A stretch of DNA of 64,000 nucleotides from Tubiluchus corallicola. Taxonomy: Eukaryota > Animalia > Priapulida. This document shows positions 1,230 through 56,310 of the stretch, piece by piece (positions within the stretch are counted from its first letter, which is position 1; the number at the start of each line of letters is the position of its first letter). The DNA is taken from the NCBI GenBank assembly GCA_030141605.1, contig JAQGDQ010000725.1, forward strand, positions 22,115 through 86,114, written 5' to 3'. A program made the position numbers and the translations under genes. The notes beneath the pieces were generated by a model. The model did not search any database. It saw nothing but the letters and a program-made list of their open reading frames with translations, and was not told where the DNA came from.

Positions 1230-3972
1230 ACTGACTAAGTGAACCGCCTCCTCTCGTGGCAGTCAACACACACAGAGATGCACCCCAACAACCCTTTCAC
1301 CATGTTCTACTGACTAAGTGAACCGCCTCCTCTCGTGGCGGTCGACACACACAGAGATGCACCCCAACAACCCTTCCACCATGTTCTACTGACTAAGTGA
1401 ACCGCCTCCTCTCGTGGCGGTCAACACACACAGAGATGCACCCCAACAACCCTTCCACCATGTTCTACTGACTAAGTGAACCGCCTCCTCTCGTGGCGGT
1501 CAACACACACAGAGATGCACCCCAACAACCCTTCCACCATGTTCTACAGACTAAGTGAACCGCCCCCTCTCGTGGCAGTCGACACACACAGAGATGCACC
1601 CCAACAGCCCTTCCACCATGTTCTACTGACTAAGTGAACCGCCATCTCTCGTGGCGGTCGACACACACAGAGATGCACCCCAACAGCCCTTCCACCATGT
1701 TCTACTGACTAAGTGAACCGCCACCTCTCGTGGCGGTAGACACACACAGAGATGCACCCCAACAACCCTTTCACCATGTTCTACTGACTAAGTGAGCCGC
1801 CACCTCTCGTGGCGGTAGACACACACAGAGATGCACCCCAACAACCCTTTCACCATGTTCTACTGACTAAGTGAACCGCCCCCTCTCGTGGCGGTCGACA
1901 CACACAGAGATGCACCCCAACAACCCTTCCACCATGTTCTACTGACTAAGTGAACCGCCTCCTCTCGTGGCGGTCGACACACACAGAGATGCACCCCAAC
2001 AACCCTTCCACCATGTTCTACTGACTAAGTGAACCGCCTCCTCTCGTGGCGGTCGACACACACAGAGATGCACCCGAACAACCCTTCCACCATGTTCTAC
2101 TGACTAAGTGAACAGCCACCTCTCGTGGCGGTCGACACACACAGAGATGCACCCAACAGTCCTTCCACCTTGTTCTACTAACTAAGTGAACTGACTCCTC
2201 TCGTGGCGGTCGACACACACAGAGATGTACCCCAACTGCCCTTCCACCATGTGCTACTGACTAAGTGAACCGCCACCTCTCGTGGCGGTAGACACACACA
2301 GAGATGCACCCCAACAACCCTTCCACCATGTTCTACTGACTAAGTGAACCGCCTCCTCTCGTGGCGGTCAACACACACAGAGATGCACCCCAACAACCAT
2401 TCCACCATGTTCTACTGACTAAGTGAACCGCCCCCTCTCGTGGCAGTCGACACACACAGAGATGCACCCCAACAACCCTTCCACCATGTTCTACTGACTA
2501 AGTGAACCGCCACCTCTCGTGGCGGTAGACACACACAGAGATGCACCCCAACAACCCTTCCACCATGTTCTACTGACTAAGTGAACCGCCTCCTCTCGTG
2601 GCGCTCGACACACACAGAGATGCACCCCAACAACCCTTCCACCATGTTCTACTGACTAACTGAACCGCCTCTTCTCGTGGCGGTCGACACACACAGAGAT
2701 GCACCCCAACAACCCTTCCACCATGTTCTACTGACTAAGTGAACCGCCCCCTCTCGTGGCGGTCGACACACACAGATATGCACCCCAACAACCCTTTCAC
2801 CATGTTCTACTGACTAAGTGAGCCGCCACCTCTCGTGGCGGTAGACACACACAGAGATGTACCCCAACAGCCCTTCCACCATGTTCTACTGACTAAGTGA
2901 ACCGCCCCCTCTCGTGGCGGTAGACACACACAGAGATGCACCCCAACAACCCTTCCACAATGTTCTACTGACTAAGTGAGCCGCCACCTCTCGTGGCGGT
3001 AGACACACACAGAGATGTACCCCAGCAGCCCTTCCACCATGTTCTACTGACTAAGTGAACCGCCCCCTCTCGTGACGGTAGACACACACAGAGATGCACC
3101 CCAACAACCCTTCCACAATGTTCTACTGACTAAGTGAACCGCCCCCTCTCGTGGCGGTCAACACACACAGAGATGCACCCCAACAACCCTTCCACCATGT
3201 TCTACTGACTAAGTGAACCGCCCCCTCTCGTGGCAGTCGACACACACAGAGATGCACCCCAACAACCCTTCCACCATGTTCTACTGACTAAGTGAGCCGC
3301 CACCTCTCGTGGCAGTCGACACACACAGAGATGCACCCCAACAACCCTTTCACCATGTTCTACTGACTAAGTGAGCCGCCACCTCTCGTGGCGGTAGACA
3401 CACACAGAGATGCATCCCAACAACCCTTCCACCATGTTCTACTGACTAAATGAACCGCCTCCTCTCGTGGCGCTCGACACACACAGAGATGCACCCCAAC
3501 AACCCGTCCACCATGTTCTACTGACTAACTGAACCGCCTCTTCTCGTGGCGGTCGACACACACAGAGATGCACCCCAACAACCCTTCCACCATGTTCTAC
3601 TGACTAAGTGAACCGCCCCCTCTCGTGGCGGTCGACACACACAGAGATGCACCCCAACAACCCTTCCACCATGTTCTACTGACCAAGTGAACCGCCACCT
3701 CTCGTGGCGGTCGACACACACAGATATGCACCCCAACAACCCTTTCACCATGTTCTACTGACTAAGTGAGCCGCCACCTCTCGTGGCGGTAGACACACAC
3801 AGAGATGTACCCCAACAGCCCTTCCACCATGTTCTACTGACTAAGTGAACCGCCCCCTCTCGTGGCGGTAGACACACACAGAGATGCACCCCAACAACCC
3901 TTCCACAATGTTCTACTGACTAAGTGAACCGCCCCCTCTCGTGGCGGTCGACACACACAGAGATGCACCCCA
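1230..3972. repeat. 79-bp GC-rich tandem satellite, ~35 copies
   Basis: Unit CTGACTAAGTGAACCGCCHCCTCTCGTGGCGGTCGACACACACAGAGATGCACCCCAACAACCCTTCCACCATGTTCTA starts at 1231, 1310 and so on. Confidence 0.97.
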
Positions 3973-4705
3973 AAGCAAAGTGCATGTCTGTAAAAACTCT
4001 TGCACCAGTTTTTAGTCATCCAGTTACATTCTGGGACGCATCAAATCCTCTGCGTCTGTCATCTCCGTGGGTTGGGAATTCACTGTGTGTTTGACTCGCA
4101 CGTCATCGCCCCATACTCCTATCTACGGTGGCGCAAAAGCGCCGACTCGTGTTTATAACAGATGTTTTCTGTTCTGTCTGCCTCTTTCTGACTAAGGACC
4201 ACAAGAGTAGCAACAATCAACAGCCTCCCAGTGAAAAACCCGAGAAGATGGTGTGAATTGAGGATCGCGCATCTGCCGTCCGTGGAGGATCTAGAACGGA
4301 TTTCTTCCCCTTTTTTACTCTTCACAGTTTCAGGATGTATCCAGAAGTGGCTATCCACAAATGCATATGCAGCTCATAAATTACAGACAAATAATTTGAT
4401 TATAACGGAATTTAATTTCTTAATTTGGCAAGGGTATCGTTTGTAACGGCTTTGCATTTTGTACGTAGTTGGGATGAGTTTTTGTAGTGCTGACTGCCGA
4501 CGTTGTAACATCAGTTTCAAAAACATTCCAAAGTCGAATCAAAGTTAGAACAAACTTAAAAAAACGGGAAAGTTGTCGGACGTGAATTTGTGGTTGAACT
4601 CCCAAATTCGATCGATGTATTTATTGATCAGATACTTTTCCCCATGAGCATTCTAGGCAAACGGAATACGAAGGTCTCATATTTTATAAGTGTAAGTCCG
4701 TTTAA

Positions 4706-4795
4706 TAATCAACCTAGCCACTGGGGGGGGGGGGGGTAAGCCAGCCCAACTCAGTGCCGGTCCCTCCCAAGCCCGGATAAATAGGGAGGGTTAGG
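4706..4795 (+). ncRNA. Twister-ribozyme-like sequence (type P1)
   Basis: Maps onto the twister core N|AA-P2-GC-P3-CCGG-UCCC-AAGC-CCGG-AUAAA-P2'-GAGGG: P2 CCUA 4713-16/UAGG 4782-85, P3 CACUG 4719-23/CAGUG 4752-56, P4 CCGG 4757-60/4773-76; extra UCCC in L4 and a weak P1. Confidence 0.75.
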
Positions 4796-5209
4796 GTCAA
4801 GAAGGGCATCTGCGTGTAAAAACTGCGCCAAAACCGATGAACGAGTCGGTGAGACTTAAAGGGAAAGTCCACAAAGAAGTGGTCAGACCCGCTCTAATCT
4901 GTGGAATGGAAGCAGCTTCTCCAAAGAAGACCGAAGAGAAGAAAATGGGTGTGGTGGAGATGAGGATGTTGAGATGGATGGTGGAAATAACAAGAAGAGA
5001 TAAATTAGAAATAATAATATCAGAGGAACAGTAAAAGTAGTGGAAGCCTCGTAAGATTGCGATGGTATGGACACCTGAAAAGAAGAGTTGGTGAAGATCA
5101 TGCGGGAAGGGAAGACATAAATGAAGAGATGGTCAACAACAGGAATGTGTAGAGAAAACTCATTCACAACGACGACCCCGCATAGGGAAAAGCTGGGAAG
5201 AAGAAGAAG
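4711..5209 (+). mobile_element. Non-autonomous, internally deleted RTE-clade retroelement (5' UTR fused to ORF C-terminus and (GAA)n tail)
   Basis: TSD AAGTCCGTTTARTAATC at 4694-4710 and 5210-5226; degenerate RTE RT C-terminal peptide LKGKVHKEVVRPAL...VEMRMLRWM; 3' end CGACCCC...GGGAAGAAGAAGAAG typical of RTE. Confidence 0.85.
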
Positions 5210-5617
5210 AAGTCCGTTTAGTAATCAGACACTGAACGTAGCTACGCAAACATTCGAGTGATGAGTAATCCTTTTTAGTGTAAGCAGGTATATTATGTCA
5301 TTCGATTGTTTCCAACGTTTTCTCTATATCTTACCTTAAGATTTTCTTTTAGGTATAGATTATCTTATCTATATCTAAAACAATTAAGCAGTAATTAATG
5401 GCGTTTCCTAAACTTTTGCTAATCATTATTCTTATTGCTGAAACGTCAACATTTTAATTTAAACTTTATTTATTTATAGTGAAATTACAAAACAGACTGC
5501 GTCTGATACAGGTATCTCCACGGTGCAAGTGCTAAGTACAAAGTGTTAATACAAGAATGTACAACCAATATAACACTTCGTTAGATCAAACAGATACATA
5601 ATATTACAATCAATTAA

Positions 5618-6264
5618 AGAAAGACAGCATGATTTTTCGTAAAGTACCACGTTCACAAGTCCGATAAAAAGTATACATTTTAACACTTAATACTACTGCA
5701 AAAGCATTTCTGATAATTAAATAATAGATTAAAAAATTAATGGCAGGCGAGCCCAATTATTGATGGCATCACAAACAAACATAATTTTCAACAACAAAAA
5801 CATTCCACGTGCGTGTTGCACGTGTTTGCGAAAGTGAAGTGCTGTGATACTCTAAGATATTCAGTGTGTTGTACTAAAACGCCTTCCTGTATTTCGGAAA
5901 CGCATTACACAAAAAATAACTGCTAGACCTCTCAATTCAGATGTGTTAGTTTATGACGTACGGCACACATTCGACAACTCATGCGTGACCACAGCGGTAA
6001 ACTTAAAATTTTAATTTCTATGTTGAAACTTGCCTATTTTCAGCAGTTGCTGTGCAATGCGTTTCCAAAATAAAGGCGCTGGTGCCCGTCTAACATGCGA
6101 ATGGTGAAATGCACGTAACAGGGAAGAACTAGTGACGCGAATTGTGTTTGTTTGGTAATAATTCTTTGGCGTAAGTCATTTTTGAAAAAATTGTATGTTT
6201 TCTTTCAATATCTTAAAGAGTAGATTGTATTGAACTACAGTTTAAGATTGGGTCCGGTTTTGCT
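5618..6264 (+). mobile_element. MITE family A (Kolobok-like, TTAA TSD, AG...CT termini)
   Basis: TTAA at 5614-17 and 6265-68; homologous to six other copies in the window. Confidence 0.75.
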
Positions 6265-6733
6265 TTAAAACAAAAGAGTGAAGCAAACTTGAAAAAAATT
6301 AATATCTTTTTAATAAATAAGGTTTTCGTTAGAAATTTTTTTTTGAGCAACTGAAAAAGAAATGGTCTTAATCCTAATGTAACAAAACCAGTTAGAAAAG
6401 CTTTCAAAAATTTGCACTACAGAAGATGTTTAAATCCAAATATTTTTCTTAGATGATGATTAATATGAACTGTGGCATTTTCATTTTCAAGAAATATTAT
6501 TCTAGCGAAAGGGGGGGTGGGGTAAAAAGGGTACCCAAAGTAGGTTTAAGAAAAATCGCTTTAAAAATTATGTTGCTTTATAGCAATTTTGTGCGTATAT
6601 CGTACTCGCGTTGAAATAATTTTTTGTCTGTTTTAGTTTTAAATTTTTGCTATGTACACAAGCAAACTTAACCGCTAAGAAAACATGGATAAATATAGAA
6701 ACCATGGAAATCTTGTGAAAAAATTTGTTTTAA

Positions 6734-12390: not shown

Positions 12391-12499
12391 AAGCCTACAG
12401 CACCTGGTATTTCTAGGCAGTCATCCATCCAAGTACTAACCGAGCTCTACATTGCTTAATTTCGGTGATCATTCGGTGAACCGTGATTTGGCCGTAGTC
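12391..12499 (-). pseudogene. 5S rRNA-derived sequence (pseudogene or SINE3-type head)
   Basis: Minus strand reads GACTACGGCCA...GATCACCGAAATTAAGCA...GGTTAGTACTTGGATGGATGACTGCCTAGAAATACCAGGTGCTGTAGGCTT, matching metazoan 5S with an internal deletion; no oligo-T terminator follows. Confidence 0.9.
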
Positions 12500-46447: not shown

Positions 46448-46815
46448 CTAAGTCAATATGGCGTACTCGGGAGAGTTTTGATCGCTGACCGTCGGGCCTA
46501 TGTGATTGTTTATTTGTTTACTTGACTGGGGTGAGATATTTGTTTGTTGGTTTGACGAGGAACCCCCACTCGCAATGTTCCGATTGCTCACGTTTTTCGT
46601 GTTGGGAAGTTTGTTGTCCTTTTTCCACTTCATTCGTCGATTTTGAAACCAGATTTTGATTTGTCGCTCAGACAAGCATAGCGAGTGGGCGATCTCTATT
46701 CGTCTCCTTCTAGTCAAGTACCGGTTAAAGTGAAATTCTTTTTCCAGTTCCAGCACCTGGTGTCGGGTATAGGCAGTTCTGGCTCGTTTCGTCTCTCCTC
46801 CGTATCCTGCCGGAG
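46448..46815 (-). CDS. Hox4: Hox paralogy group 4 (Deformed-like) homeobox, terminal coding exon
   Basis: [65 protein letters not shown] followed by the PG4-diagnostic KLPNTK; polypyrimidine tract plus CAG acceptor at 46816-46840 (phase 1); TAG stop at 46448-50. Confidence 0.95.
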
Positions 46816-47311
46816 CTGAAAGAGAAAAAAATTGAAAAATCAAGTTTCCTGTTTCACCAATTTAGCTTTCCTTTGTTACGATGCAAGCAGATCTTCGTCT
46901 AGTGAACTTTAGGAACCTTTTAATAGAAAAAAGGCGTTTAGAGACCTTGGACTTTCCTCTAATACTGGACCGAAATATTGGAATTCTTTGCATCAAAACC
47001 TTAGAATTGTTTCTACAGTATAACTTTTGAAAAATGTTTGAAGATACGTCTCTTTAAAAACTGTTATGATCAATTTTAACTGTTCTAGACATCAATAACG
47101 ACCTATTTCTTTACTATAATTTCTTTGCTGTACGTGATTAACTTGTATGTCTTGTACAAAATTTTTAAATAATTTTATTAGTCTTATATTTTCTTAATTG
47201 TGCTACTGTCACTATGATGTATTACTGTGCAGCGCCATTGAAATCACCCTCCAGTTTGTGTACTTCTTTGTCATTTATGGTAAAGCTTGAAGCTTATTCC
47301 TCTATGTAAGA

Positions 47312-55299: not shown

Positions 55300-56310
55300 T
55301 ACAAACAGTACTACAACCAGATGAAATGCACATTATTACAATTCTAGTAAAGGATGTTAAATTTACGTAAAAGTTGGGAACACCTTAGGAAGAAGTTTTA
55401 GCACGAATATTGGAGTCCCCCAGGGGGACTGTCTTAGTCCAATACTTTTCTACCTAGCAAATGCACTTAAAATCCAAACTCCTCCAAATGATCATCATGA
55501 TTACGATACCAGTGTTTGTGATAACCTTCCTCAACATATTCTGGATCATTCCTATCCTGTTTTGGAATCCTATGAACCATAACTTATTGATCAGCAATAC
55601 GCAGACGATATTAGATGGATTAGTGTATCAAATTTTCAAATTAACATAATAAAAAGGGATTTTTCAAAAAAAGCTAGAGAAAAGAAATCTTCAACCAGTC
55701 AAAGCAGAAGAATATTTTATTGCAAGAGATGGTAATCAGTCTTGGAAAAAGTGCAAGTATATTCTAAACACTGAAGAAGATATTAAAAGCAGAAAGCAAC
55801 AAGCAATGCATGCTTTTCTTCAGCACAAGAATGTATTAACTAGCAAGAAATTAAGTCTTAACGTAAGACTTCAATTATTTAATGCATACGTTACCAGCAT
55901 ATTTATGCACAACAGTGAAACTTGGTGTTTAACGATTACTCAAGAAAAGCGGATTGACACATCTCACACAAGCCTTCTAAGCAAAGTTTTAAAGATAAGA
56001 TGGCCATACATAATCAAAAATGAAGATTCATACACCAGAACAAAAGAAATTTATTGGAGTTCAAAAGTCAAGATCCGAAGATTAAGATGGCTAGGACATC
56101 TTCTACGATTACCAAATGAAGCGCCAGTAAAAATCACCTTAAAGGAAGCCTTAAAACTTTGCAAAAAACCACCTGGCAACCCAAAAAACACCTTGGATAG
56201 CTAAGATAAATAAATATATTCAACAACTTTAGCCAAATCTATCTTTAGGAGTAGAAGACTTACGCTGTTAGCTGCAGATAGGAGTGAGTGGAATGCGCTA
56301 ACAAATTTTA
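55300..56310 (+). pseudogene. Degenerate RTE-group reverse transcriptase fragment
   Basis: GVPQGDCLSPILF (~55410), QYADDI (~55595), NSETW and RRLRWLGHLLRL motifs with frameshifts. Confidence 0.85.

What the first reader, a model, noticed from the sequence alone, without database searches (positions are those of the whole stretch)
4694..5226. Twister-ribozyme-headed, ~500-bp non-autonomous RTE retroelement whose 5' boundary coincides with the ribozyme cleavage site
Seen: a 17-bp TSD (one mismatch) brackets 4711-5209. The element is bipartite, with ~125 nt of 5' UTR joined directly to the RT C-terminal coding remnant and a (GAA)n tail, and I see no tRNA or 5S head. Its first 80 nt align element by element with the twister core (P2, GC pseudoknot, P3, P4, UCCC/GAGGG pseudoknot), and the predicted cut C4710|A4711 falls exactly at the TSD/element junction. 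Known: twister ribozymes occur at the 5' ends of RTE-clade LINEs such as Schistosoma Perere-3. Inference: this is a promoter-less, SINE-like parasite that is released from host read-through transcripts by self-cleavage, borrows its 5' P1 strand from the target site and is mobilised in trans by an RTE. If active it would also cut plus-strand (antisense to Hox4) transcripts crossing this locus. This copy has a UCCC duplication in L4, a 14-G run in P3 and only a weak P1, so it may be inactive.
Basis: partly seen in the sequence, partly recalled or inferred. Interest (0 to 1): 0.85.

Follow-up and report, generated by a model that had tools for sequence, protein, structure and literature searches.

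The report
Abundant twister-headed mini-RTE retroposon family
This is one worn copy of an abundant 500-base jumping element whose copies begin at the base where a self-cutting "twister" RNA fold is predicted to cut, so it likely frees itself from host transcripts and borrows the enzyme of a longer RTE retrotransposon, a trick so far shown for full-length elements of a blood fluke.

Summary
Observation confirmed, with small corrections. A 17-bp target-site duplication (one mismatch) brackets 4711-5209. Rfam twister-P1 gives only 24.1 bits. A model built from nine relatives, without this copy, hits 4711-4792 at 57.7 bits, and the twister helices covary (9 of 24 pairs). Genomic contigs show a high-copy family (roughly 10^3). 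25 contigs in one run and 44 in another begin at 4711, the predicted cut, with unrelated flanks, and other copies share the head-to-RT junction. The junction lies near 4846-4848, just after the old start codon, and two more deletions sit in the RT remnant. The same head precedes full-length endonuclease-RT genes and other short elements elsewhere. P1 is not conserved. This copy's 4-nt duplication probably misfolds it. Cleavage, read-through transcription and an active master element were not shown, and the Hox4 link is unsupported (41 kb away). It is a twister version of known ribozyme-headed, internally deleted LINE derivatives (R2 SIDEs, bipartite RTEs). The scan noted the same kind of element before in two other genomes.

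The parts
4694..4710 (+). Left target-site duplication (17 bp; 18 if A4711 is counted)
4711..4792 (+). Type-P1 twister core without a stable P1; predicted cut C4710|A4711; family 5' end
   Evidence: loose ends at 4711 in 25 (X1) and 44 (X3) contigs
4723..4736 (+). 14-G run in P3; shorter in other copies
   Evidence: table 4
4761..4764 (+). 4-nt duplication in L4, absent from 34/20/51/12 contigs of the four runs; creates a predicted 7-bp helix with 4784-4790
4793..4847 (+). Rest of the RTE-type 5' UTR (GGGCATC motif, A-run) and the old start-codon region; ATG 4837-4839 is in frame with the RT remnant
   Evidence: alignment to L004, L006, L011
4846..4848 (+). Main internal-deletion junction (about 2.5 kb of endonuclease-RT gene missing, judged from L011)
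   Evidence: RT similarity starts at 4849; bridged by other copies (record 12, record 7)
4849..5185 (+). Remnant of the RT protein's C-terminal region with a frameshift near 5001-5004, deletions near 5051-5057 and 5113/5114, stop at 5183-5185
   Evidence: 74% identity to P0002 over 53 aa
5186..5209 (+). 11-nt 3' UTR and (GAA)n tail from 5197
   Evidence: sequence; loose ends at 5207/5212 in 7, 27 and 19 contigs
5210..5226 (+). Right target-site duplication

Best explanation
This is a decayed copy of a high-copy, 500-bp internally deleted derivative of an RTE-type LINE whose copies begin at the predicted cut site of a twister ribozyme, which likely releases the RNA from host read-through transcripts so that an intact RTE enzyme would copy it into new sites. 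Steps: (1) a host transcript runs through a copy (inferred). (2) The twister folds and cuts just 5' of A1, giving every template the same 5' end (structure and shared 5' end shown; cutting inferred). (3) An RTE protein made elsewhere binds the retained 3' end and primes reverse transcription at a nick, helped by the GAA tail pairing with the target (TSD and tail shown; partner inferred). (4) The new copy gets a new upstream flank, which supplies base -1 and any weak P1 by chance. This particular copy is probably inactive.
For: Family: depth 8.4 in the flank against 15,700-75,000 inside (X1), and 166 against 398,000-796,000 (X3) (a rough measure). 5' end: 25 contigs (X1) and 44 (X3) run off at 4711 into unrelated flanks (agreement 0.44 and 0.43). 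3' end: 27 (X2) and 19 (X3) contigs run off at 5212. Junction: 14 X3 contigs clipped at 4835 continue into the same RT remnant (agreement 0.97), and X2 record 12 (4806-4962) and X3 record 7 (4803-4898), both differing from this copy, bridge it. Ribozyme: 10 of 11 relatives scanned match Rfam twister-P1 (28.5-61.3 bits). 89% of cells are paired and 9 of 24 pairs have compensatory changes, with 0 of 500 shuffles as high. Model R1, built without this copy, gives one hit in 64 kb, 4711-4792, 57.7 bits. Origin: the same head precedes a single 998-aa endonuclease-RT ORF in L011 and endonuclease ORF starts in L004 and L006. L002, a 284-bp element, has a perfect 13-bp TSD ending exactly before A1. Liu et al. 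2021 (PMC8501958) showed cleavage for Perere-3 twisters with altered P1, whichever base lies 5' of the cut.
Against: No cleavage or RNA data. Every twister match is below Rfam's gathering score. P1 is not conserved. No intact master with this head was seen in this genome; only undeleted RT-end sequence appears in a few contigs (1 at 4851; 4, 7 and 5 at 5115). Only 1 of the 4 other short elements with both ends in view (L002, L005, L008, L010) showed a TSD, and L011 showed none at its ends. The 3' half of the relatives was selected by my pattern and five of ten belong to one family, which inflates conservation. X1, X3 and X4 are one sample, possibly the source of the window. RTE-clade membership rests on architecture, not on a tree with named RTEs.
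Confidence: 0.8

Rival explanations
1. The head holds an internal promoter that starts transcription at 4711, and the twister is an inherited relic or only trims a minority of transcripts.
For: Kojima 2018 (PMC5786205) expects bipartite LINEs to be transcribed by Pol II from their 5' ends. The P3 loop motif AAGCCA is conserved among distant heads, which could be a DNA signal. No cleavage was tested.
Against: The start falls on the exact catalytic register of the twister in this family and in L002. The helices keep compensatory changes, and the core bases GAGGG and CAAGCCCGG are intact in most copies.
Confidence: 0.1
2. The short form is not a self-propagating unit: it is debris of a full-length RTE (recurrent deletion or DNA-level duplication of one deleted copy).
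For: Undeleted RT sequence exists in the same runs, and depth is higher in the 3' part than in the head.
Against: The same main junction and the 30-codon deletion are bridged by several differing contigs (records 4, 12, 29, 31; record 7). Flanks at 4711 are unrelated, which excludes segmental duplication. No head-to-endonuclease continuation was among the listed loose ends (51 rows not shown).
Confidence: 0.06
3. This insertion was kept as a cis-acting cleavage element that limits plus-strand (antisense) transcription in the Hox cluster.
For: It lies in a window with a Hox4 gene on the opposite strand. The insertion is present in two samples, with no empty-site joint among the 15 of 16 joints listed.
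Against: It is 41 kb from the Hox4 homeobox exon, in repeat-rich DNA (22% tandem repeats). This copy carries more damage in the ribozyme than its family does.
Confidence: 0.03

Closest known systems
Twister 'T-variant' ribozymes at the 5' end of Perere-3 (RTE clade), Schistosoma mansoni (Liu et al. 2021, PMC8501958; read: parts 2-4 of 9 of the text and passages; supplements not seen)
   Same: Type-P1 twister core; element starts at the AA after the cut; TSD abuts the cut and supplies the 5' side of P1; short tandem-repeat tail.
   Different: Perere-3 is full-length and codes for its own enzyme, and cleavage was shown. Here the element is a 500-bp non-autonomous family in another animal, cleavage untested. 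18.6% of their T-variants had no conserved domain downstream, so short forms may lie unrecognised in their supplements.
R2 SIDEs and R2/R1 hybrid SIDEs (Eickbush and Eickbush 2012, PMC3414825; abstract read)
   Same: 5' ribozyme joined to a LINE 3' end, no promoter head, mobilised in trans.
   Different: SIDEs use an HDV-like ribozyme (PMC6765202 passages), sit in rDNA at a fixed site and are rare. This family uses a twister, inserts at unrelated AT-rich sites and is abundant.
Bipartite non-autonomous RTEs: RTESINE1/2, WALLSI3, MAR4_MD, Bov-A (Kojima 2018, PMC5786205; passages, section 23, one supplement searched)
   Same: 5' end plus 3' end of an RTE, no tRNA or 5S head; the paper already links this to 5' ribozymes as an open question.
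   Different: The ribozymes cited there are HDV-like, and the two twister/UTR motifs I searched were absent from its supplement. Here the 3' part keeps about 330 nt of RT coding remnant.
RIME and NARTc of trypanosomes (as cited in PMC5786205 and PMC6765202 passages)
   Same: Short internally deleted LINE derivatives that keep the parent's 5' end, with dispersed insertion.
   Different: Ingi clade with an HDV-like ribozyme, not RTE with a twister.

Membership tests
Twister ribozyme, type P1 (RF03160) | P2, P3 and P4 helices and two pseudoknots in the right order | tested here: met
   All present in this copy; covariation in P2 and P3 across 10 sequences
Twister ribozyme, type P1 (RF03160) | Conserved catalytic bases: A after the cut, G and A of GAGGG, L4 motif | tested here: met
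   A4711, G4786, A4787 present; L4 has a 4-nt duplication in this copy only or in a minority
Twister ribozyme, type P1 (RF03160) | Score at or above the Rfam gathering threshold (67.2 bits) | tested here: not met
   24.1 bits for this copy, 28.5-61.3 for relatives; the model expects P1 and a short P3
Twister ribozyme, type P1 (RF03160) | Closing P1 helix | tested here: not met
   35% of cells paired, not above shuffles; fits the P1-altered T-variant type
Twister ribozyme, type P1 (RF03160) | Self-cleavage | not testable with these tools
   Needs an in vitro assay or 5'-OH end mapping
Bipartite non-autonomous LINE / SIDE-like element | Only the 5' and 3' parts of a LINE, no coding capacity for EN or RT | tested here: met
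   Head matches full-length L004/L006/L011 heads; 3' part matches RT C-terminus
Bipartite non-autonomous LINE / SIDE-like element | Many dispersed copies with the same junction | tested here: met
Bipartite non-autonomous LINE / SIDE-like element | Each copy has its own TSD | tested here: inconclusive
   Shown for this copy; other copies have unrelated flanks at both ends, but contigs do not span whole copies
Bipartite non-autonomous LINE / SIDE-like element | Autonomous partner sharing both ends in the same genome | tested here: inconclusive
   Undeleted RT-end sequence in a few contigs; no full-length copy seen; no assembly held
RTE clade | Single ORF of about 1000 aa with AP endonuclease and RT, about 3-3.9 kb (PMC1291365 passages) | tested here: met
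   For relatives with the same head: L011, 998 aa, Exo_endo_phos plus RVT_1; not applicable to the remnant itself
RTE clade | Very short 3' UTR ending in short tandem repeats | tested here: met
   11 nt plus (GAA)n after the stop at 5183-5185
RTE clade | RT phylogeny with named RTE elements | not tested
   No named RTE sequence came from any tool; nearest proteins are unnamed shrimp and catfish gene models
Classical SINE (tRNA, 5S or 7SL head) | Pol III small-RNA head | tested here: not met
   No tRNA, no Rfam small-RNA head at the element

The most novel reading that the evidence does not exclude
The twister plus RTE 5' UTR is a portable substitute for a promoter that has repeatedly founded abundant, headless SINE-like families across animals. 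This family, the 284-bp L002 family and L012 (a different breakpoint) would be independent origins. That would account for a large share of eukaryotic twisters and make thousands of genomic copies potential cut sites in host transcripts. The conserved AAGCCA loop in P3 may be a second signal, for example a binding site for the RTE protein.
Probability: 0.5. Interest if true: 0.65.

Novelty: new variant of a known kind. Interest (0 to 1): 0.45.

Why it matters
Twister ribozymes are common in eukaryotes, but a biological role has been shown mainly for one flatworm LINE. A family with on the order of a thousand copies, a sharp 5' end at the predicted cut and a different upstream flank at each copy is a natural mutagenesis series for how the flank and P1 tune cleavage. 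It also makes testable Kojima's open question of why RTE, Ingi and R2, all ribozyme-bearing, are the clades that spawn headless derivatives. The locus itself is probably an inert insertion.

Tried and rejected
No whole genome is held, so no genome-wide BLAST was possible; read contigs were used instead. No second copy lies in the window. Rfam at gathering level finds no twister in the window. The twister-UTR pattern found nothing in viral contigs. No RNA holder was listed, and run X6 (RNA by guess) laid 0 contigs; neither says anything about expression. The first TSD control (1289 hits of up to 20000) was confounded by tandem repeats and was replaced. Minimum-energy folding cannot show pseudoknots and did not recover P2 or P4 for this copy or for the variant without the duplication (P2 at most 0.015, P4 at most 0.08), nor the native nested fold for L004 and L006. 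It therefore supports only the existence of the competing helix, not the native fold. Pfam finds no domain in the remnant and the PDB has no match for it. The sigma-70 scan is not relevant to an animal. Left out of the covariation count: L007 (near-duplicate of L005), L009 (misaligned, long P3) and L012 (degenerate 5' half). The scan's own index had no look-alike by sequence and no twister note in this genome.

Full report
Observation. 4694-4710 and 5210-5226 agree at 16 of 17 bases, and the match extends to A4711/A5227, so this copy alone fixes the boundary to within one base. The repeat is not chance: 0 of 20000 shuffles, and one of only 6 clusters of such repeats among 48,259 unmasked 17-mers in the window. 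The element has no tRNA or 5S head and no second copy in the window.

The ribozyme. Rfam twister-P1 gives a weak hit (4733-4794, 24.1 bits, E 0.048, gathering 67.2) and picks the wrong 5' strand because of the long P3 and the L4 duplication. I scanned public metagenome contigs with a pattern covering the twister 3' half and the GGGCATC motif behind it, and got 12 loci. 10 of the 11 scanned match twister-P1 at 28.5-61.3 bits, all below gathering. On an alignment of this copy and nine loci, the named structure has 89% of cells paired, and 9 of 24 pairs change on both sides (3 in P2, 6 in P3 and its inner stem). 0 of 500 shuffles reach these values and slid controls reach at most 50%. P1 is not conserved (35%). 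A model built from the nine loci without this copy finds a single hit in the window, 4711-4792, 57.7 bits. Caveats: the 3' half was selected by my pattern, I set the model's start at A1, five loci are one family, and three loci were left out.

The family. Four runs (two samples, two studies; X1, X3 and X4 are one sample and may be the window's source) were laid on 4300-5600, then X3 and X6 on 4681-4920. Depth rises from 8.4 in the flank to 15,700-75,000 inside the element in X1, and from 166 to 398,000-796,000 in X3. Summed contig depth is not a copy number, but it points to the order of a thousand copies. 25 contigs in X1 and 44 in X3 leave the alignment at 4711 into mutually unrelated AT-rich flanks (agreement 0.44, 0.43); 499 loose-end rows were not shown, so other starts are not excluded. 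At the other end 27 (X2) and 19 (X3) contigs leave at 5212. The head-to-RT junction is shared: 14 X3 contigs clipped at a small indel at 4835 continue into the same RT remnant, and contigs that differ from this copy bridge it (X2 4806-4962, X3 4803-4898). The 30-codon deletion at 5113/5114 is also bridged by differing contigs (records 4, 29, 31). A few contigs carry undeleted RT sequence at 4851 and 5115 (my translation by eye of the loose ends), so longer relatives exist in the genome. No contig continuing from this head into an endonuclease gene was among the rows shown. No empty-site joint was listed.

Anatomy. Alignment with L004, L006 and L011 shows the 5' part to be a complete RTE-type 5' UTR running a few bases past the old start-codon region. 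Similarity to RT proteins begins at 4849 (74% over 53 residues to P0002) and ends at the stop 5183-5185, followed by 11 nt and the GAA tail. L011 carries the same kind of head before one 998-residue ORF with endonuclease and RT domains, the layout given for the RTE clade in PMC1291365 (passages). I had no named RTE sequence for a tree. The right TSD begins with bases that continue the tail, in line with the tail-to-TSD correlation in PMC6007223 (abstract and section 16).

This copy. The 4-nt duplication in L4 is missing from 34, 20, 51 and 12 contigs of the four runs, at least half the depth there, and the G run is shorter in other copies. The duplication allows a 7-bp helix with 4784-4790 (predicted probability 0.77) that would tie up the catalytic G and part of P2. 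The family head therefore looks intact while this copy probably is not. Locus-specific contigs stop at 4736, so the duplication at this locus rests on the assembly alone.

Mechanism. A pile-up of 5' ends at one base means the RNA templates ended there, either by transcription start or by cleavage. That the base is the twister's A1, here and in L002 (perfect 13-bp TSD ending just before A1), favours cleavage. Liu et al. (PMC8501958; parts 2-4 of 9 and passages) showed that such P1-altered twisters of Perere-3 cut whichever base precedes the site. Read-through transcription and mobilisation in trans are inferred. The Hox4 homeobox exon is about 41 kb away and nothing ties the element to it.

Novelty. 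Each ingredient is published: twister at an RTE 5' end (Perere-3), ribozyme-headed deleted LINEs (R2 SIDEs, PMC3414825 abstract; review PMC6765202 passages), and bipartite non-autonomous RTEs with a suggested ribozyme link (PMC5786205). Six full-text searches listed no paper describing a twister-headed non-autonomous RTE. The library lacks most subscription papers and Repbase, and I did not see Liu's supplements, which may list such elements. Two earlier notes of this scan describe the same kind of element in other genomes; they are unchecked and not counted as support. Verdict: a real, abundant family and a new variant of a known kind, interest 0.45.

Noticed in passing
L002:3991-4274 (also L001, L003, L008, L010): A 284-bp non-coding element with the same twister and UTR head, a (TG)n tail and a perfect 13-bp TSD ending just before A1. 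The family has a U-C mismatch in P4 in all five loci.
   Followed up: partly
L012:830-1332: Twister plus UTR joined directly to a decayed RT fragment at a different, earlier breakpoint: an independent bipartite element. Its P3 is very short and P2 is degenerate; the contig ends before the 3' end.
   Followed up: partly
L006:740-800: The twister head follows the (GAA)n 3' end of another RT-coding copy after a 20-nt spacer: a tandem RTE array or a collapsed repeat assembly.
   Followed up: partly
window 4738-4743; L001, L003, L006, L008, L011: The apical loop of P3 (AAGCCA) is conserved among distant heads although the stem varies; it echoes the L4 motif. Function unexplained.
   Followed up: no
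window 4837-4839: An ATG in frame with the RT remnant; most copies have an extra A near 5001 that keeps the frame, so the family could encode a short peptide. May be chance.
   Followed up: no
window 4711-5212, run X2: Depth rises about 30-fold from head to tail in X2, against about 2-5-fold in X1 and X3; the library type is unknown.
   Followed up: no
window 5453-5558: A second short dispersed repeat of about 106 bp with sharp ends and unrelated flanks (19, 23 and 14 contigs start at 5453).
   Followed up: no
window 12392-12499 (-): 5S rRNA match (48 bits) next to a tandem repeat: possibly a 5S pseudogene or a 5S-headed SINE.
   Followed up: no
window 1230-3973 and 1-546: Long tandem arrays; the first has a 79-bp period at about 94% identity.
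   Followed up: no
window 5613-6268: A dispersed repeat with copies at about 8.1-8.9, 15.5-16.0, 33.4-33.7, 40.2-40.5, 49.5-50.1 and 51.9-52.5 kb.
   Followed up: no
window 55653-56204 (+): Another non-LTR RT C-terminal remnant (weak DUF6451 match).
   Followed up: no
window 46448-46861 (-): Homeobox exon of Hox4/Deformed type (Pfam Homeodomain 6.8e-24; type judged from recalled motifs); the only homeobox found by motif scan in the window.
   Followed up: partly
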